Source: a virus (lineage: Duplodnaviria; Caudoviricetes). From it: 56,003 bases of DNA. Where the stretch lies: positions 1 to 56,003 of the IMG/VR virus record IMGVR_UViG_3300020179_000039; one strand, given 5' to 3'. Within the stretch, counting starts at the first letter, position 1. Each line of letters starts with the position of its first letter. A program made the translations under genes and the position numbers. Below the pieces are notes generated by a model, which worked only from the letters and a program-made list of their open reading frames with translations, had not been told where the DNA came from and ran no database searches. Of this stretch, positions 9,749 to 52,742 are shown piece by piece.

Positions 9749-9754
9749 GACTTG

Positions 9755-10129
9755 TGGAGGTGGTGGGATTCGAACCCACGTCCAATAAAGAAGCAGTTCA
9801 ATGCAGCTTATCACATGCTTAGTACTGATCATTTTGTTGACGTCAACGAAATGGTCTGCACCGTAAAGGCACACCAAGTAGGTCGCACTCCACCACTTAG
9901 TTTTACGAACTAAGAAACGTGTTTGTGACTTTCTGTTCCAAGGTTGTCACCACCCGATGACTAGGCAGCAAGTTCTAACTCAGCACCCACGAAAGACATA
10001 GCGTCTTCCCAAGTCATAGACGAAAGTTCAGTTTCGCCGGTTATATTCTGGTACGTGATTATAGAGAGCAGGACCATCTCTCTGCATGTGCATTGACCCT
10101 CGCAGTACTGTCGAAAGCCTTTCACCCCC
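9755..10129 (-). ncRNA. ssrA: tmRNA
   Basis: 5' GGGGGTGAAAGGCTTTCGAC, 3' GGACGTGGGTTCGAATCCCACCACCTCCA; G3:U70 pair; 375 nt; tag ORF 10038-9961 GETELSSMTWEDAMSFVGAELELAA* preceded by ATAACC. Confidence 0.93.
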
Positions 10130-10423: not shown

Positions 10424-10461
10424 AAATGAAAATCAGATTTTTCAAAGAACGATTTATTCTG

Positions 10462-10536
10462 TTGCGGGGGTGAGATTCGAACTCACGTGGTTTGGCTTAT
10501 GAGACCAAGCTGGAACCTACTCCAGTCCACCCCGCC
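10462..10536 (-). tRNA. tRNA-Met(CAT), initiator-like
   Basis: Anticodon arm TTGGT-CTCATAA-GCCAA, T loop TTCGAAT, acceptor GGCGGGG/CCCCGCA with 1:72 mismatch. Confidence 0.85.
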
Positions 10537-12306: not shown

Positions 12307-12741
12307 ATGGCAAAGAAAAAAGCAATATTCAAGTTCAACGGTGGTCAGGGAGCACTGTTATGTAGTAAATGTAGTAAAATCATTAAAACAGGAAAACAGA
12401 TGAGTAAAAAAGAAATCGCTGCTATGAAAGGTGAGCAGCACTTAGATGCACAATACTGTGAAGATTGTGGTGGTCAAAAGCCTGAACCCAAAATATTTTA
12501 TTTGAAACGTGAAGAGGATAATAAACTTATTGCTGGTTTGAGTTATAAGTTTGTTGAATGGAACGAAAACGGTACGGGTAAAGATTTACATGATGAACCT
12601 AAAGAAGGTTACAGCTTTATTATGGACCCCAATCCTATTGACTTTACTTGGTTAACTACTCAAATTACTGAAATTCTCACAGACGATGAGAAACTCTTAA
12701 AGTTTAAAACCAAAAACTCCACGTATACACTGGAAAAATAA
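12307..12741 (+). CDS. hypothetical protein with N-terminal Zn finger
   Basis: FNGGQGALLCSKC...YCEDC. Confidence 0.65.
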   Translation: MAKKKAIFKFNGGQGALLCSKCSKIIKTGKQMSKKEIAAMKGEQHLDAQYCEDCGGQKPEPKIFYLKREEDNKLIAGLSYKFVEWNENGTGKDLHDEPKEGYSFIMDPNPIDFTWLTTQITEILTDDEKLLKFKTKNSTYTLEK

Positions 12742-15125: not shown

Positions 15126-15227
15126 ATGTATCACTGGTACATCATTTCGGGAGTCAGTATCCTTGCAAAGTCCCTGCGAGAAGCGTATCGCTACTTCAGA
15201 GACAACTGCAAGGAGAAAGGTGAGTAA
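15126..15227 (+). CDS. 33-aa micro-protein, first ORF of putative early region
   Basis: MYHWYIISGVSILAKSLREAYRYFRDNCKEKGE followed by motif and hairpin. Confidence 0.45.
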   Translation: MYHWYIISGVSILAKSLREAYRYFRDNCKEKGE

Positions 15228-15255
15228 GGATTACTCACGCCCGGCAGCAACACAC

Positions 15256-15299
15256 AGGTGGTAGTAGTATGTAGTAAGTATATACTATTACCACCTTTT
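15256..15299 (+). terminator. long hairpin with T tail
   Basis: AGGTGGTAGTAGTATGTA-GTAAG-TATATACTATTACCACCT-TTT. Confidence 0.55.
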
Positions 15300-15355
15300 A
15301 CATGCAAATACTCACCACCTTAAGTAATCAACTAAAACCCCTAAATATCACAGTT

Positions 15356-15716: not shown

Positions 15717-16232
15717 ATGAGTAAATTAACTCTTTCGCCCGAAGTCTCTGACTTCAAAGAAGGTCTGTTCATCCTTACAGACGAAGCCGGTAACTCTGTC
15801 CGTCGTTACGAAGATGACCCTGAGCAGGGTTACATCGTACTGAAAGATGTGCAGTTCCGCGAAATCACCCTGTTAACTTCCACTCGTCTCCAACTGAAGA
15901 CACGTCAGGCGCTTTATGCAGGTCCTGTAGAAGTGCTTGAGAAGAAGATTGCTATGTGGGAAAAAGCAGGTAAGATTCCAGGTCGCATCCAGTCTCTGGA
16001 TATCCTGGAAGGTGACCCAATCCTTGACAACCTCAAGAACTTGGACCGCTATGTAAAGCGTGCTGGAGAAGACGGACCAGTGCTTACTAAGGAAGGTAAA
16101 AAGATTTACCACTTCCGTAAGTATACCGCTAACCCTGACGCTTTAGACATGCTCATCGAGCACGACAACAAAGCGGAAGTAGTCACACACCGTGCTGCAG
16201 CGCGTCTTGCATCTGCAGACCTCGACGCTTAA
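15717..16232 (+). CDS. hypothetical protein, paralog A (ends ASADLDA)
   Basis: Shares YEDDPEQGY, LYAGPVEVL, GKIPGRI, KRAGEDG, IEHDN blocks with 16495-16974. Confidence 0.8.
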   Translation: MSKLTLSPEVSDFKEGLFILTDEAGNSVRRYEDDPEQGYIVLKDVQFREITLLTSTRLQLKTRQALYAGPVEVLEKKIAMWEKAGKIPGRIQSLDILEGDPILDNLKNLDRYVKRAGEDGPVLTKEGKKIYHFRKYTANPDALDMLIEHDNKAEVVTHRAAARLASADLDA

Positions 16233-16289: not shown

Positions 16290-16459
16290 GGAACAAAAAC
16301 AATACTCACCAACGCAGAAGTACACTACTGCAGTTTTTTGATCATCAACTTGACATGTCTGATAATCTGCAAAATCCGGTAGTTTTTGGTGGGACTCGCA
16401 GCCCTAACCTGCAGTATCAACACTCTTTCGACGGAACAAAAACAGTACCCACCACCGCA
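16290..16459 (+). repeat. 27-bp direct repeat, two copies (16290-16316, 16433-16459)
   Basis: GGAACAAAAACAATACTCACCAACGCA vs GGAACAAAAACAGTACCCACCACCGCA, 24/27 identical. Confidence 0.8.
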
Positions 16460-16494
16460 ATTAATCACTAACAAAACAATTTAAAAGTTCAATT

Positions 16495-16974
16495 ATGAGC
16501 AAAAACATCAATCCCAATTTGAAGGTTGTCACAGAGTTGACAGCTTACGAGTCTGATCCCAACCAAGGTTGGGTACGCATGGAAGAGACTTCTTATGTAG
16601 ATAAGGAGATTTCCCCATTGCGCACAATTGCTGTAGCAGAGAAGCGCAGCTGTCTTTATTCCGGTTCTATGGAAGCTTTGCAAGCCAAGCTTGCAGAGTG
16701 GAAGCGTCAAGGTGGTATCACCGGTCGCATCCGCGTAGTAGAGATGGTAGAGTCTGAAGCAAAGCAATTTGTCAAAGACATTACCACTCGTGAACCTAAA
16801 AAAGCCGGTGACACTGGTGTAATCTGCTGTGTAGGTGGTGAACCTATCTATCGCTTTAGCGCATACGACGCTACTGGTGAGAAGACAGACACCATGGTAA
16901 TGCACGATAATGGTGACGCCATCCGTGCTATTAACGCTCAACGTCGTCTTGAGTCTGCAGATTTAGACGCATAA
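16495..16974 (+). CDS. hypothetical protein, paralog B (ends ESADLDA)
   Basis: YESDPNQGW, LYSGSMEAL, GGITGRI, KKAGDTG, VMHDN. Confidence 0.8.
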   Translation: MSKNINPNLKVVTELTAYESDPNQGWVRMEETSYVDKEISPLRTIAVAEKRSCLYSGSMEALQAKLAEWKRQGGITGRIRVVEMVESEAKQFVKDITTREPKKAGDTGVICCVGGEPIYRFSAYDATGEKTDTMVMHDNGDAIRAINAQRRLESADLDA

Positions 16975-16993
16975 GACGTTATGCGTCTACTAT

Positions 16994-17050
16994 ATAGGGA
17001 TACAGTAGTGGGGTAATACCTGCTACTGTACTCTCTATTTAGTTTTTGTT
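16994..17050 (+). terminator. intrinsic terminator
   Basis: ATAGGGA-TACAGTAGTGG...CCTGCTACTGTA-C-TCTCTAT followed by T-rich run. Confidence 0.6.
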
Positions 17051-17402
17051 TGGGTTAGTCTACAATTCCAACGGTAAATGAATAATTTTCAGCGTGTTCG
17101 AGAGAGCACGAATGAGTGAGAGCACCACACCTCACCATATCATTACCGTCAAACAGTTCTCAAAACCACATATTAGGTTCATCAGAACACGGATTAGATA
17201 GCTAACTCATTCTTAACGTCCGTACATAAAGGGTATATTCTCTCTATGTATGATTGACTACTATATATTAAAATAAGAGCTTTCTACTATAGGGTTTTTG
17301 TTAGGGATTCTCCCTTAGTAGAGTAGTACTTCCCCGGGGATTACCGTTTGTGACGGGTGTAGTAACATCGCGTCTTGTAATCTTTGAGACCACAAGTCTC
17401 AT

Positions 17403-17589
17403 AACGCAGGCTAAAGTTTAGGTGTCTCATAGTAACGATAAATAACAGACAATTGGTAGTATCAAGCGTTTTTGTTACATCTTCCATTTTTTTGAGTTTG
17501 GAATCAAATTTGTGACAATCACCAATGATCAAACCATAGGCTCTAACGTCTATCGTCTATGCTGCGGGTTCGATTCCCGCTCTGCGTTC
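17403..17589 (+). ncRNA. tRNA-like RNA with very long anticodon-arm extension
   Basis: Acceptor AACGCAGG/TCTGCGTT, perfect T arm GCGGG-TTCGATT-CCCGC, stems CATAG..ACGATA/TATCGT-CTATG, ATTGGT/ACCAAT, TTGTTACA/TGTGACAA, TTCCA/TGGAA. Confidence 0.6.
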
Positions 17590-17613
17590 AAACCAATCCA
17601 AATATTATACAGT

Positions 17614-17736
17614 ATGAAAAATCAAGGTAAAACAGACCGCCAGGTCCACGATGCTGACCGTAACGCTATGATAGCTGTAGCAGGTCTTATTATTACAGTA
17701 GTGCTCTGCATATTAGTTGACATTTTAAAACGCTAA
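17614..17736 (+). CDS. 40-aa single-TM protein
   Basis: MKNQGKTDRQVHDADRNAMIAVAGLIITVVLCILVDILKR. Confidence 0.55.
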   Translation: MKNQGKTDRQVHDADRNAMIAVAGLIITVVLCILVDILKR

Positions 17737-17738
17737 CC

Positions 17739-17981
17739 ATGAACTTAAAAATCAACTTCTACACAGTGTTTTTTACCCTCATTGTAGGGTATGGTATCTT
17801 CCAATACGGAAGAGTATACGATAGGTCTCCAAAGACCATAGTTGACCAAGCCGAATACAACCACGTTGTGCTCGGGTCCAATGAATGTACAATCGTTACA
17901 GATACAGCAGGAAACGTTAATTCCATATGGTTTAAGGACCAACCTTATACCCTTGATACTGCTATCCTTAATGATTTATAG
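17739..17981 (+). CDS. small protein with N-terminal TM
   Basis: FYTVFFTLIVGYGIF. Confidence 0.6.
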   Translation: MNLKINFYTVFFTLIVGYGIFQYGRVYDRSPKTIVDQAEYNHVVLGSNECTIVTDTAGNVNSIWFKDQPYTLDTAILNDL

Positions 17982-18085
17982 TTCGCACACGCGAACATGG
18001 TTCTAGACATGCGTACACATCTATATAACATGTCTATATACATATATTCGCCCACGCGAACATAGTATGACCGCATACGCGAACA
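17981..18085. repeat. three palindromic repeats (GTT)CGC-N4-GCGAACA
   Basis: 17981 GTTCGCACACGCGAACA; 18047 TTCGCCCACGCGAACA; 18072 CGCATACGCGAACA. Confidence 0.75.
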
Positions 18086-19188: not shown

Positions 19189-19536
19189 ATGCGTTTATCA
19201 TATTCAAACATCCGACGTTTTTACAGGTTGTTAACCACATACCGTAAGTTTAAAAAAGCATGTAAGTCTTGTTTTTCAGATCAATATGTTGAACCAGTCC
19301 GTTTTGAAATATGGGCTATCAATCATATGAATAGAAAATCTAAGATATACGCTTTTGAAACAATGAAAGAAGCGATGAATTTTGTTACCATGGAAGACAG
19401 ATTAGACACTGAAATTGAATACTTATTCATAAAACGTGTAAAAGAAAATTGTCAAACATTGCGATTAAATATTCATCCAATTAAAAGTCCCATCCACAAA
19501 CCCTACGATATATGTCTAAATCAGAAGCTTTCATGA
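19189..19536 (+). CDS. hypothetical protein
   Basis: 115-aa ORF. Confidence 0.6.
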   Translation: MRLSYSNIRRFYRLLTTYRKFKKACKSCFSDQYVEPVRFEIWAINHMNRKSKIYAFETMKEAMNFVTMEDRLDTEIEYLFIKRVKENCQTLRLNIHPIKSPIHKPYDICLNQKLS

Positions 19537-52322: not shown

Positions 52323-52742
52323 TCAACCAAACAACTTGAAAAGAACTGTAAAGTTCGATTCAGTTTCAATGTTTTTGAATTCATCTACGCTAAGTTTAAT
52401 ATGTTCAACTTCGCGTTCAGTTTTCATTAGTTCATCCATCTGTTTACGAAATTCAATAATGTTGGGATTAACTACACCATCAATTTCATTTTTAATCTCA
52501 AAAGATCCGTCTTCAGTTTCTGTTCCCAAAGACTTAATTAGTTCATTACGCTGTTCACCAATATACTTCTTATCTTCTTGTAGAGAAGTCAAGAGTTTAT
52601 TTAAGTGATACTTTGTGGCAATTGAAAGCTTGTGTTGGAGCAATCCTTTAGAAACAATTCCTGTTTCATTAGCAACGCCGCCAATTTCCGCTTCCAGGAA
52701 GAGAATCTCTTCCAGAGTTAGACTGGTTTTTACTGTTTCCAT
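52323..52742 (-). CDS. helical hypothetical protein at end of tail operon
   Basis: 139 aa from ATG 52742; own TATATTTGTAGAG promoter. Confidence 0.7.
   Translation of the reverse strand: METVKTSLTLEEILFLEAEIGGVANETGIVSKGLLQHKLSIATKYHLNKLLTSLQEDKKYIGEQRNELIKSLGTETEDGSFEIKNEIDGVVNPNIIEFRKQMDELMKTEREVEHIKLSVDEFKNIETESNFTVLFKLFG

What the first reader, a model, noticed from the sequence alone, without database searches (positions are those of the whole stretch)
17403..17589. Second tRNA mimic: acceptor stem and perfect T arm with a ~130-nt rod in place of the anticodon
Seen: 8-bp acceptor-like stem, small CTAA/TTAG hairpin in the D position, canonical T arm GCGGG-TTCGATT-CCCGC, and four nested helices forming a long arm. 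The layout recalls the tmRNA tRNA-like domain or bacterial Y RNAs, but there is no G3:U70 and no evident tag ORF. Inference: an early-expressed tRNA-shaped scaffold or decoy; two unrelated anticodon-less mimics in one genome suggest a strategy rather than decay.
Basis: partly seen in the sequence, partly recalled or inferred. Interest (0 to 1): 0.7.

Follow-up and report, generated by a model that had tools for sequence, protein, structure and literature searches.

The report
Anticodon-less tRNA-derived RNA in lake phage
A small group of uncultured freshwater phages keeps a 187-base RNA gene with the top half and elbow of a tRNA but a long hairpin rod instead of an anticodon, probably a remodelled leucine-type tRNA that can no longer decode, like the stable tRNA-like RNAs of phages T4 and T5 whose job is still unknown.

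Summary
The element at 17403-17589 (+) is real. It has an 8-bp acceptor stem, a canonical T arm, a GG at tRNA positions 18-19 and a ~134-nt irregular rod. Six distinct versions in related phage or metagenome contigs keep this fold: 97.7% of cells pair, and 17 of 45 pairs changed on both sides (shuffles 5.3±1.8). The rod's sequence diverges far faster than the flanking genes. The CTAA/TTAG 'D hairpin' is not conserved.

It is not a tRNA, a tmRNA (no G3:U70, no tag frame, 17 bits against a 47-bit cut-off) or a Y RNA.

More distant relatives, reached through PhoH, carry either a true tRNA-Leu(UAA) in the same gene neighbourhood or over-long class-II tRNA-like genes (106-202 nt, Leu-type D arm, swollen middle). 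The window clade has no tRNA-Leu.

My best reading is a non-decoding shell derived from a class-II (Leu-type) tRNA. Host RNase P, RNase Z and CCA enzyme would cut it out of a longer transcript. That would free a short-leader mRNA 24 nt downstream and leave a stable RNA of unknown role.

The closest known RNAs are T5 RNA1/RNA2 and T4 rnaC. They are analogues, not detectable homologues. Expression and processing are not shown. This is a new variant of a known but unexplained kind.

The parts
17403..17589 (+). Whole tRNA-derived element: acceptor stem, D-region loop, rod, T arm, acceptor 3' strand, then C
   Evidence: Fold. The covariance model R1 finds it once per related genome. Pair counts.
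17403..17410 (+). Acceptor 5' strand AACGCAGG. In tRNA numbering A1 is most likely 17404, and 17403 (-1) pairs with U73.
   Evidence: Invariant in 6 of 6 distinct sequences. The frame is inferred from relatives in which 7 nt follow the T stem before N73.
17411..17427 (+). D-region loop without a conserved D stem. The GG at 17421-17422 falls at tRNA positions 18-19.
   Evidence: Alignments. The CTAA/TTAG hairpin is broken in 4 of 5 window-type sequences. GGTGT is invariant.
17428..17561 (+). Irregular hairpin rod. Its base helix CATAG/CTATG (17428-17432 with 17557-17561) is invariant; the interior is variable.
   Evidence: 15 of 32 rod pairs changed on both sides. Interior identity between window and L004 is 20%, against 89% for the upstream gene. 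The apex has a 16-nt indel.
17562..17563 (+). Two-nucleotide linker CU between the rod and the T stem, a junction like that of a class-II variable arm
   Evidence: Invariant. Compare GT, TT and CT before the T stem in L149 tRNA-Leu and in the over-long relatives.
17564..17580 (+). T arm GCGGG-UUCGAUU-CCCGC
   Evidence: Compensatory variants GCAGG/CCTGC, GCAGG/CCTGT and GTGGG/CCCAT occur in relatives.
17581..17589 (+). Acceptor 3' strand UCUGCGU, then U73, then C. No CCA is encoded.
   Evidence: The phage's own tRNA-Thr and tRNA-Arg also lack an encoded CCA and are followed by C-T/A-A-A.
16975..17402 (+). Conserved non-coding spacer upstream. It holds a terminator-like hairpin (17001-17030), local hairpins (about 17072-17150), a 39-nt invariant block (17183-17221) containing TAGATAGCTAAC, a helix domain (about 17337-17384) and a hairpin (17385-17401) ending 1 nt before the element.
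   Evidence: Alignment. Many 1-nt indels. RNAalifold gives 107 pairs, 96.9% of cells paired, 7 pairs changed on both sides against 1.9±1.2 in shuffles. Part of it is shared with the spacers of more distant relatives.
17614..17736 (+). Small ORF (40 aa with a hydrophobic stretch) starting 24 nt after the element
   Evidence: Conserved in L002 (25 nt after) and L136 (98 nt after).

Best explanation
The element is a non-decoding RNA gene that descends from a class-II (leucine-type) tRNA gene of this phage lineage. It keeps what tRNA-processing enzymes read: a 7/8-bp acceptor stem stacked on a 5-bp T stem, a canonical T loop, and G18G19 to form the elbow. The D stem and the anticodon arm are gone, and one long, fast-evolving, self-paired rod fills the middle. 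Inferred mechanism: it is transcribed on the + strand as part of a longer RNA. Host RNase P cuts at its 5' end. RNase Z or other 3' nucleases cut after U73, and the host CCA enzyme finishes it. This (a) sets the 3' end of the structured upstream leader, (b) frees the downstream small-ORF mRNA with a leader of about 24 nt (tRNA 'punctuation'), and (c) releases a stable RNA of about 190 nt whose own role, if any, is unknown. It cannot decode. With U73 instead of A73, and with U8/A14/A15 lost, it is probably not charged by LeuRS. Shown here: the fold, its conservation and covariation, strand specificity, the gene neighbourhood and family context, and non-membership in tRNA, tmRNA and Y RNA. Inferred: the origin from tRNA-Leu, processing by tRNA enzymes, and stability.
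For: 1. Structure is conserved in 6 distinct sequences, with 17 of 45 pairs changed on both sides. G:U pairs make it specific to the + strand, and the reverse strand scores 25-31 bits against 192-214 forward.
2. The core is held while the rod interior drifts. Window vs L004: acceptor plus D region 76%, base helix 100%, 3' part 82%, rod interior 20%; flanking genes 89% and 68%.
3. Family context. In 14 of 78 PhoH-linked loci of more distant relatives, my script found 16 '+'-strand T arms outside ARAGORN tRNAs. Each is closed by a 7-bp acceptor 79-176 nt upstream. Most are followed by U8-G9 and a Leu-type D arm (GCGGAATTGG.AGACGC), with swollen variable or middle regions. Rfam scores one of them (L195) as tRNA at 29.1 bits.
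4. L149 and L167 have a true tRNA-Leu(UAA) between homologues of the window's genes 16495-16974 and 19189-19536, the same neighbourhood as the element. The complete window-type genome G004 has only 3 tRNAs and no tRNA-Leu. R1 finds no element in L149 or L167.
5. The 3' halves are shared. L004 type vs L195: 25 of 29 nt. L120 type vs L162:11975-12134: 21 nt identical through the T arm.
6. With A1 = 17404, the GG sits at positions 18-19, and the rod joins the T stem through 2 nt, as a variable arm does.
7. An ORF starts 13-25 nt after the 3' end in 9 of 18 such elements, including this one.
8. The phage encodes no CCA enzyme, SmpB or Ro60: 0 of 4-5 records, including the complete one. It must therefore rely on host enzymes.
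9. RNA-library contigs of close relatives from 4 studies cover the region, and one contig runs through the whole element.
10. Plant mitochondrial t-elements are a precedent for tRNA-like cleavage signals at mRNA ends (PMC1920247, abstract read).
Against: - No RNA ends were seen. The only expression data are assembled contigs of relatives (about 90% identical), which cannot show transcription, strand, ends or stability.
- A mere cleavage signal does not need a 134-nt rod kept paired by compensatory change, so the rod may have a function of its own.
- Homology of the rod to a variable arm is unproven. Local alignments to relatives' inserts are not significant apart from one shared 8-bp hairpin. 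Similarity of the 5' and 3' parts to tRNA-Leu is no better than to other phage tRNAs.
- The neighbourhood is shared, but exact adjacency is not.
- The 8th pair (A-1:U73) could shift or hinder RNase P cleavage.
- In 4 of 6 variants an alternative fold, which pairs ATCGAACC in the rod with the T loop, is 1-3.6 kcal/mol more stable than the tRNA-like fold.
- Only one narrow clade carries this exact form, so the covariation rests on about three lineages.
Confidence: 0.5

Rival explanations
1. It is a trans-acting decoy or sponge. After release, the shell binds and titrates a host factor that recognises the tRNA top half or elbow, for example a tRNA-targeting defence nuclease, a tRNA-modifying or nucleotidyl-transferase toxin, or a synthetase. 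The rod only has to stay folded, or it diversifies under an arms race.
For: The acceptor, elbow and T arm are conserved while the middle is hypervariable across the family. Related phages carry up to two such shells next to a true tRNA-Leu. The T4 and T5 analogues accumulate as stable RNAs, according to their record annotations and to PMC3014915 and PMC9697503. E. coli tRNA-Leu lacking the anticodon and variable arms is still leucylated if A73 and the D/T-loop contacts remain (PMC9976931, section 12), and several relatives have A73.
Against: No partner is identified. The window form has U73 and has lost U8/A14, so LeuRS binding is doubtful. Without an anticodon loop it cannot decoy anticodon nucleases. 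No defence or counter-defence gene was recognised nearby. There are no abundance data.
Confidence: 0.2
2. It is the 3' domain of one large (~560-nt) structured phage RNA (17031-17589), an ornate RNA with a covalently attached tRNA-like module, as is sometimes seen for GOLLD RNAs with linked tRNAs.
For: The 428-nt spacer upstream is non-coding (many 1-nt indels) and conserved (78-89% identity). It has 107 predicted pairs, 7 of them with changes on both sides against 1.9±1.2 in shuffles. A conserved hairpin ends 1 nt before the element. RNA-library contigs run from the upstream gene into the element. GOLLD and ROOL are phage RNAs often found near tRNA islands, and tRNAs sometimes lie in the GOLLD linker (bioRxiv 10.1101/2024.12.08.627333, passages read).
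Against: Rfam gives no GOLLD, ROOL or other hit at E ≤ 10 over 16900-17700. The spacer breaks down into parts that more distant relatives have without the element: a terminator hairpin with a T run, a hairpin, and a promoter-like TAGATAGCTATAAT motif. The long-range helices have no double-sided changes. That structure was derived from the same 4 sequences.
Confidence: 0.12
3. The rod is a cis-acting processing or regulatory hairpin, for example an RNase III-type site or a stabiliser, that controls the downstream small ORF. The tRNA-like ends are secondary.
For: The rod is a long, irregular, mostly paired hairpin kept by compensation. An ORF starts 24 nt downstream. RNA-library contigs of two studies break inside the rod, at 17459 (followed by letters I recognise from memory as sequencing adapter) and at 17475.
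Against: Contig breaks at hairpins and at variable sequence are expected assembly artefacts. The strongest conservation is in the tRNA-like core, not in the rod. Relatives have quite different inserts in the same shell.
Confidence: 0.08
4. It is a mini-tmRNA-like decoy: a tRNA-like domain plus a long helix 2 without a message, which binds SmpB or EF-Tu.
For: The layout (acceptor, stemless D loop, long helix, T arm) resembles the tmRNA tRNA-like domain. The T arm matches the Rfam tmRNA model locally. The phage has its own tmRNA at 9752-10129.
Against: There is no G3:U70 (C3:G70 or G3:C70), no tag frame and no pseudoknots. The score is 17 bits against a 47-bit cut-off, and on the T arm only. The phage has no SmpB gene. 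Relatives point to a class-II tRNA origin.
Confidence: 0.03
5. It is a decaying tRNA pseudogene or an att-like fragment with no function.
For: The anticodon arm and D stem are lost, no tool calls it a tRNA, and only one narrow clade has this form.
Against: Compensatory changes occur in the T stem and the rod, and the acceptor and GG are invariant while neighbouring genes diverge to 68-89%. Both acceptor strands are kept, unlike att fragments.
Confidence: 0.05

Closest known systems
Phage T5 RNA1 and RNA2 (NC_005859 30501-30644 and 32959-33083, annotated 'tRNA-like stable RNA with unknown functions')
   Same: They are phage-encoded, lie in or near the tRNA gene region, and have acceptor closure plus a canonical T arm, with no standard anticodon arm and a folded insert in its place. 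T5 RNA1 has the Leu-type D arm CCGGAAUUGGUAGACGG, as do the over-long elements of this phage family.
   Different: No sequence or structure homology is detectable with model R1. The window form has lost the Leu-type D arm, has a single 134-nt rod, U73 and an 8th acceptor pair, and lies on the strand opposite to the phage's tRNAs. The stability of T5 RNA1 is taken from the record's annotation; nothing is known for this element.
Phage T4 rnaC (species 1 RNA, NC_000866 70908-71046, 139 nt)
   Same: It is a small stable RNA next to the T4 tRNA genes, with a canonical T arm CCGGG-UUCGAAU-CCCGG near the 3' end and long hairpins in place of the D and anticodon arms. Its function is still unknown (PMC3014915 and PMC9697503, passages read).
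   Different: Model R1 does not hit it. It has two hairpins rather than one rod, and a different phage family and host.
Class-II tRNA-Leu, including tRNA-Leu(UAA) of related phages (L149:14229-14315, L167:14525-14611)
   Same: It lies in the same gene neighbourhood. It shares the T stem GCAGG/CCTGT with the L002 type, begins with A1, has an AAAGT..GGT D-loop motif, has a 2-nt junction before the T stem, and encodes no CCA.
   Different: The window element has no D stem, no anticodon arm or anticodon, U73 instead of A73, and a rod of 134 nt instead of a 14-nt variable arm. It is not scored as tRNA.
Plant mitochondrial t-elements and tRNA punctuation (Forner et al. 2007, PMC1920247)
   Same: These are tRNA-like structures at mRNA 5' or 3' ends, proposed as cis-signals for RNase P and/or RNase Z (abstract). 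Here an ORF starts 24 nt after the element.
   Different: They belong to organelles, not phages. Cleavage is not shown here. t-elements carry no long rod.
tmRNA tRNA-like domain (Rfam RF00023)
   Same: It has an acceptor stem, a stemless D loop, a long helix leaving the core, and a T arm.
   Different: The window element has no G3:U70, no tag frame and no pseudoknots, and scores far below the family cut-off.

Membership tests
tRNA (Rfam RF00005 / ARAGORN) | Detected by the family model at or above its cut-off | tested here: not met
   There is no tRNA match at 17403-17589 at gathering score, and ARAGORN calls none.
tRNA (Rfam RF00005 / ARAGORN) | Anticodon stem with a 7-nt loop carrying an anticodon | tested here: not met
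   The sequence next to the base helix pairs on into the rod and covaries. No conserved 7-nt loop exists in the three lineages.
tRNA (Rfam RF00005 / ARAGORN) | Acceptor stem, T arm with a UUCRANY loop, and G18G19 | tested here: met
   The GG is at positions 18-19 if A1 = 17404.
tRNA (Rfam RF00005 / ARAGORN) | D stem | tested here: not met
   CTAA/TTAG is broken in 4 of 5 window-type sequences and absent in L004.
tmRNA (RF00023) | Family model score at or above 47 bits | tested here: not met
   17 bits, on the T arm only (model positions 347-363).
tmRNA (RF00023) | G3:U70 alanine identity pair | tested here: not met
   C3:G70 (frame from 17403) or G3:C70 (frame from 17404). That G3:U70 is the rule for AlaRS is recalled.
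tmRNA (RF00023) | Tag reading frame and pseudoknots | tested here: not met
   No frame is conserved: a 16-nt and several 1-3-nt indels occur in the rod. The fold is a single rod.
Bacterial Y RNA / YrlA | 5' and 3' ends form the Ro-binding stem, the tRNA-like part is closed, and a Ro60 (TROVE) gene is linked | tested here: not met
   Here the ends form the acceptor stem. TROVE is found in 0 of 5 related phage records, including the complete one. There is no Rfam hit. The Y RNA layout is taken from the abstract listing of PMC4201824 and from recall.
Phage tRNA-like stable RNAs (T5 RNA1/RNA2, T4 rnaC): an operational kind, not a homology family | Phage-encoded, acceptor closure plus T arm, no anticodon, folded insert | tested here: met
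   for the element; for the T4 and T5 RNAs.
Phage tRNA-like stable RNAs (T5 RNA1/RNA2, T4 rnaC): an operational kind, not a homology family | Accumulates as a discrete stable RNA in infected cells | not testable with these tools
   Only assembled contigs from RNA libraries of relatives are available.
Phage tRNA-like stable RNAs (T5 RNA1/RNA2, T4 rnaC): an operational kind, not a homology family | Detectable homology to T5 RNA1 or T4 rnaC | tested here: not met
   Model R1 hits only ordinary tRNAs in the T4 and T5 loci.
Class-II (Leu-type) tRNA-derived shells of this phage family | 7-bp acceptor directly after the T stem, N73, no CCA encoded, insert between the D region and the T arm, '+' strand downstream of PhoH | tested here: met
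Class-II (Leu-type) tRNA-derived shells of this phage family | Leu-type D arm U8-G9-GCGGAAUUGG.AGACGC | tested here: not met
   The window has C8-U9-AAAGUUUAGGUGUCU. Only AAAGU..GGU resembles the D loop of L149 tRNA-Leu.
Class-II (Leu-type) tRNA-derived shells of this phage family | Significant sequence similarity of the insert or rod to relatives' variable arms | tested here: inconclusive
   Only the L120 type vs L142 and L158 shares one 8-bp hairpin (z about 6, but a palindrome counts twice). The window, L002 and L004 types show nothing.
GOLLD / ROOL (for the upstream spacer) | Match to the Rfam model | tested here: not met
   No hit at E ≤ 10 over 16900-17700.

The most novel reading that the evidence does not exclude
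This phage lineage maintains a family of tRNA-Leu 'shells' whose top half and elbow are fixed while the middle is rebuilt again and again: rods of 134 nt, variable arms of 33-100 nt, and hairpins inserted in the D loop. The released shells would act in trans on a host factor that reads the tRNA elbow or acceptor, with the insert under diversifying selection. Examples would be counter-defence against tRNA-directed immunity, or capture of LeuRS or EF-Tu by the A73-bearing members. In the window clade the shell may also be physically coupled to a ~370-nt structured leader, forming one ornate RNA.
Probability: 0.15. Interest if true: 0.8.

Novelty: new variant of a known kind. Interest (0 to 1): 0.5.

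Why it matters
Stable tRNA-like RNAs without anticodons have been known in T4 (rnaC/rnaD) and T5 (RNA1, RNA2 and others) for decades, and no function has been found. This locus shows the same design in an unrelated group of uncultured lake phages. Its relatives display what look like stages from a true tRNA-Leu to an anticodon-less shell. That gives a comparative handle on which parts are under selection (top half and elbow) and which are free (the middle). It also suggests concrete tests: RNase P/Z cleavage, CCA addition, and leucylation of members with A73 against members with U73. If the shells prove to be processing marks, they extend mitochondrial-style tRNA punctuation to phage operons. 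If they act in trans, they are a new class of phage effector RNA. The practical gain is modest. They are invisible to tRNA finders and to Rfam, so such genes are now annotated as empty intergenic DNA.

Tried and rejected
- **tRNA with an intron:** rejected. No conserved anticodon-loop flanks, the flanks pair and covary, and the rod is a plain hairpin far smaller than a group I intron (the intron size is recalled).
- **Second tmRNA, or a permuted tmRNA:** rejected (and the gene order).
- **Y RNA:** rejected.
- **Antisense regulator:** the longest complementarity to the rest of the window is 13 nt, E = 0.12.
- **Repeated palindromic element:** TTGTCACA is not over-represented, 76 matches against 74 expected.
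- **Known RNA families:** nothing at gathering score or at E ≤ 10 beyond the T arm.
- **Cultured phages:** no DNA match for 17000-18000.
- **Exact-pattern scans:** TAACGCAGGCTAAA gave 111 stretches in viral contigs, of which only the 4 known related contigs hold the element. The T-arm/acceptor pattern gave 4 viral stretches, 8 metagenome stretches (6 real, 2 chance) and 1 genome stretch (chance). GGATTAGATAGCTAAC gave 8 stretches: 4 known contigs, and 4 copies of an unrelated coding sequence.
- **Neighbour-protein routes:** ORF 16495-16974 has one homologue cluster only. The CobS-like protein found only the same 4 contigs.
- **R1 on 78 PhoH loci:** 1 weak hit (L167:11310-11466, 25 bits), an unrelated hairpin region.
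- **Whole-record searches:** L120 and L121 are not held, and relatives cannot be drawn for a virus record.
- **RNA-library contigs:** they cover the region in 4 runs of 4 studies. Depth before the rod is 116 against 28.5 after it in X1, and 921 against 73 in X3, but contig depth is one figure per contig, the contigs come from relatives about 90% identical, and DNA carry-over is possible. I take no expression level, end or strand from them.
- **Protein scans near the locus:** PHROGs (9 ORFs) and Pfam (30 ORFs) found no RNA-handling protein.
- **Earlier notes of this scan:** none for this genome or sequence.
Full report
**What is there.** The window is a 56-kb fragment of an uncultured virus record, about 47% complete. 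It carries a tmRNA (9752-10129, -) and three tRNAs on the minus strand. It also encodes PhoH, CobS/CobT-like proteins, ribonucleotide reductase and replication genes.

At 17403-17589 on the plus strand the sequence reads as follows:
- AACGCAGG, the acceptor 5' strand;
- a 17-nt loop;
- a ~134-nt irregular hairpin whose base helix is CATAG/CTATG;
- CU;
- the T arm GCGGG-UUCGAUU-CCCGC;
- UCUGCGUU, the acceptor 3' strand;
- C.

The unconstrained MFE fold is exactly this shape (-45 kcal/mol, z = -2.2, 5 of 200 shuffles as good). ARAGORN and Rfam call nothing here. The only local Rfam hit is the 17-nt T arm against the tmRNA model, 17 bits against a cut-off of 47.

**Is it more than chance?** Yes, on comparative grounds.
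- The neighbouring gene led to 4 related viral contigs, and all 4 hold the element.
- A T-arm/acceptor pattern found 8 metagenome stretches: 6 hold the element and 2 are chance.
- This gives six distinct sequences in about three lineages: window/L120/L121, L002/L003, and L004.
- The acceptor stem is invariant.
- T-stem variants are GCGGG/CCCGC, GCAGG/CCTGC, GCAGG/CCTGT and GTGGG/CCCAT.
- The L004 rod is almost unalignable in sequence, yet it folds as a rod of the same kind.

I built a covariance model from the five window-type sequences (171 positions, 45 pairs). It finds the element once per genome and finds L004 at 57.8 bits. On that alignment 97.7% of 264 cells pair. 17 of 45 pairs changed on both sides, against 5.3±1.8 in shuffles (0 of 500 reach it) and 0-2 when partners are slid. 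The alignment is fitted to the model, so these numbers lean towards it. The T-stem and several rod changes are nevertheless visible in the plain MAFFT alignment.

Recurrent G:U pairs, and the weak reverse-strand score (25-31 bits against 192-214), put the RNA on the plus strand.

Conservation is uneven. For window vs L004:

| Region | Identity |
|---|---|
| Acceptor plus D region | 76% |
| Base helix of the rod | 100% |
| T arm plus 3' strand | 82% |
| Rod interior | 20% |
| Upstream gene | 89% |
| A downstream gene | 68% |

- The CTAA/TTAG 'D hairpin' is broken in 4 of 5 window-type sequences and missing in L004.
- What is conserved is a stemless loop with an invariant GG.
- If tRNA position 1 is 17404, that GG sits at positions 18-19. 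The residue at 17403 then pairs with U73 as an eighth pair.
- In four of six variants an 8-mer in the rod (ATCGAACC) can pair with the T loop, giving a fold 1-3.6 kcal/mol better than the tRNA-like one. This pairing is broken in the window and absent in L004, so I treat it as unexplained.

**What it is not.**
- *Not a tRNA.* There is no anticodon arm and no D stem, and it falls below the cut-offs.
- *Not a tRNA with an intron.* The residues flanking the base helix pair onward and covary, so they are not an anticodon loop.
- *Not a tmRNA.* It has no G3:U70, no conserved frame (16-nt and 1-3-nt indels) and no pseudoknots.
- *Not a Y RNA.* Its ends form the acceptor stem, not a Ro-binding stem.
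- Neither this phage nor its complete 120.7-kb relative encodes Ro60/TROVE, SmpB or a CCA-adding enzyme.
- There is no significant antisense match elsewhere in the window.

**Where it comes from.** PhoH, 4.3 kb upstream, opened a much wider circle: 318 relatives, of which 80 loci were kept at 75-97% amino-acid identity. R1 finds the element only in the L004-type loci. Among the other 78 loci it gives one weak, unrelated hit.

A script then looked for T arms lying outside ARAGORN tRNAs. It found 16 plus-strand cases in 14 of those 78 loci. Each is closed by a 7-bp acceptor strand 79-176 nt upstream. A 7-nt match with G:U allowed is not rare by chance, but most of these are all Watson-Crick. Most are also followed directly by U8-G9 and a leucine-type D arm (GCGGAAUUGG.AGACGC), which is independent evidence. 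They fall into three groups:
- *Six of 106 nt.* A complete class-II body, anticodon loop CUGUCUC, G73 and a 33-nt variable arm.
- *Four of 150-173 nt.* The same body with variable arms of 77-100 nt.
- *Six of 132-202 nt.* A Leu-type D arm (twice with a hairpin inserted in the D loop), no standard anticodon arm, and A73 or G73.

Rfam scores one of them (L195) as tRNA at exactly its threshold, 29.1 bits.

In L149 and L167 a true tRNA-Leu(UAA) lies between homologues of the window's genes 16495-16974 and 19189-19536. That is the same neighbourhood as the element. Those loci have no element. The complete window-type genome has only the three other tRNAs and no tRNA-Leu.

The 3' halves link the forms:
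- L004 type vs L195: 25 of 29 nt identical.
- L120 type vs L162:11975-12134: 21 nt identical through the T arm.
- L149's tRNA-Leu and the L002 type share the T stem GCAGG/CCTGT.

The rod joins the T stem through 2 nt, as a class-II variable arm does.

Homology of the rod itself to a variable arm is not shown. Local alignments are insignificant apart from one shared 8-bp hairpin, and a palindrome counts twice. The similarity of the ends to tRNA-Leu is no better than to other phage tRNAs. Descent from a class-II, Leu-type tRNA is therefore my best inference (about 0.65), not a demonstration.

**Surroundings.** The 428 nt between the upstream gene and the element are non-coding (many 1-nt indels) and conserved. 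RNAalifold predicts 107 pairs in 15 helices, with 7 pairs changed on both sides against 1.9±1.2 in shuffles and 0-1 in slid controls. That structure was derived from the same four sequences.

Part of this spacer is a module that more distant relatives also have behind the same gene:
- a terminator hairpin with a T run;
- a GAGUGAG...CUCAC hairpin;
- a promoter-like motif, TAGAUAGCUAUAAU. In the window it reads TAGATAGCTAAC, inside a 39-nt invariant block at 17183-17221.

I therefore do not claim one large RNA and keep that as a rival. Rfam gives no GOLLD or ROOL match.

A 40-aa ORF starts 24 nt after the element. In 9 of 18 elements of the family an ORF starts 13-25 nt after the 3' end, and these ORFs are unrelated to each other.

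**Expression.** One search found four metatranscriptome runs from four studies, each holding 5-6% of the sampled words. Laid on the region, their contigs are about 90% identical, so they come from relatives. They cover 16400-17475 and most of what follows. One 3,093-nt contig runs through the whole element with a different rod interior. These are assembled contigs. They show presence in RNA libraries, not transcription, strand, ends or abundance.

**How it most likely works.** The parts that are kept are the acceptor/T-stem stack, the T loop and G18G19. By established knowledge of tRNA maturation (recalled), these are the parts read by RNase P, RNase Z and the CCA-adding enzyme. The phage brings none of these enzymes. 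Its own tRNAs also lack an encoded CCA.

I therefore propose that host enzymes excise the element from a longer plus-strand transcript. That would trim the upstream leader, free the downstream mRNA with a short leader, and release a stable RNA of about 190 nt. The abstract of PMC1920247 describes the same logic for plant mitochondrial t-elements.

Charging is unlikely for the window form. In E. coli, tRNA-Leu without its anticodon and variable arms is still leucylated, but only with A73 and intact D/T-loop contacts (PMC9976931, section 12). The window form has U73. Several relatives do have A73, which keeps a trans-acting role open for the family.

Why a 134-nt rod is kept paired is not explained by the processing model. 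That is its main weakness.

**Comparison with known RNAs.** The closest known things are the 'stable RNAs of unknown function' of T-odd and T-even phages.
- T5 RNA1 has the same Leu-type D arm, a T arm, acceptor closure and a folded insert.
- T4 rnaC has a canonical T arm and long hairpins.
- Both are still without a function (passages of PMC3014915 and PMC9697503; T5 from the record's annotation).
- R1 does not detect either, so they are analogues of the same kind, not demonstrable homologues.

My literature searches turned up no description of this family. A 2023 survey of structured RNAs in IMG/VR mentions tRNA-like candidates only in general terms (passages read). Its supplements, which I could not open, might list this motif.

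Earlier notes of this scan describe similar anticodon-less shells in other phages, including a 'leucine-tRNA shell' compared with T5 RNA1. I used these as leads and checked T5 RNA1 myself.

**Verdict.** The interpretation as a tRNA-shaped, non-decoding RNA is right in outline, but the tmRNA and Y-RNA comparisons are not. It is a new, extreme variant of a known but unexplained kind.

Noticed in passing
L141:6119-6224, L143:7728-7833, L147:5795-5900, L148:12341-12446, L182:12189-12294, L207:12670-12775: These are 106-nt class-II tRNA genes missed by ARAGORN and Rfam. They have a Leu-type D arm, a 5-bp anticodon stem that covaries, an anticodon loop YUGUCUC (GUC with U37 and C38), a 33-nt variable arm and G73. 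L141 and L143 encode CCA. They could be odd Asp- or Ser-type tRNAs, or mimics.
   Followed up: partly
L142:6228-6377, L157:3218-3390, L158:7945-8110, L163:6824-6983: These have the same body as above, but the variable arm is swollen to 77-100 nt. In L142 the loop is CGGUCAC, with U33 lost. An ORF starts 13-22 nt downstream in all four.
   Followed up: partly
L160:17531-17662; L162:11975-12134 and 12601-12735; L171:14771-14972 and 15185-15321; L195:10879-11021: These are over-long tRNA-like genes with a Leu-type D arm, no standard anticodon arm, and A73 or G73. Two have a hairpin inserted in the D loop. L162 has a true tRNA-Leu(UAA) between its two copies.
   Followed up: partly
window 10461-10536 (-): ARAGORN's 'tRNA-???' folds as a normal cloverleaf with the loop CUCAUAA (anticodon CAU) and scores 37.9 bits as tRNA. 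Orthologues in L149, L167 and L144 are called tRNA-Met. It is probably a working tRNA rather than a mimic.
   Followed up: partly
window 9752-10129 (-): This is a phage-encoded tmRNA (88.5 bits) with an unusually long predicted tag, GETELSSMTWEDAMSFVGAELELAA, and a G3:U70 acceptor. No SmpB gene is present in the phage or in its complete relative.
   Followed up: partly
window 17183-17221; L149:13520-13545; L167, L160, L162 and L171 spacers: A promoter-like motif TAGATAGCTATAAT / TAAATGGCTATAA recurs behind the same gene in relatives. In L149 and L150 an ATG lies 5 nt after TATAAT, so the mRNA may be leaderless. The window clade has TAGATAGCTAAC inside a 39-nt invariant block.
   Followed up: no
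window 17527-17534 against 17566-17573, and the same places in L002, L003, L120 and L121: ATCGAACC in the 3' strand of the rod is complementary to the T stem-loop GGTTCGAT in 4 of 6 variants and gives a more stable alternative fold. It is broken in the window (ATCAAACC) and absent in L004.
   Followed up: partly
window 15717-16232 and 16495-16974: The two ORFs upstream of the element are paralogues of each other: each matches both homologues in relatives by tblastn. Neither has a Pfam or PHROG match.
   Followed up: no
window 17459 and 17475 (run X1 record 1, run X3 record 4): RNA-library contigs of relatives stop inside the 5' strand of the rod. In X1 the stop is followed by 23 letters that look like sequencing adapter (recalled). 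This could be an RNA end or an assembly break at a hairpin.
   Followed up: no
window 52353-52361 (+): There is a further GTTCGATTC T-loop-like word in a region with a minus-strand ORF. With 5 matches in the window against 2.3 expected, it is probably chance.
   Followed up: no
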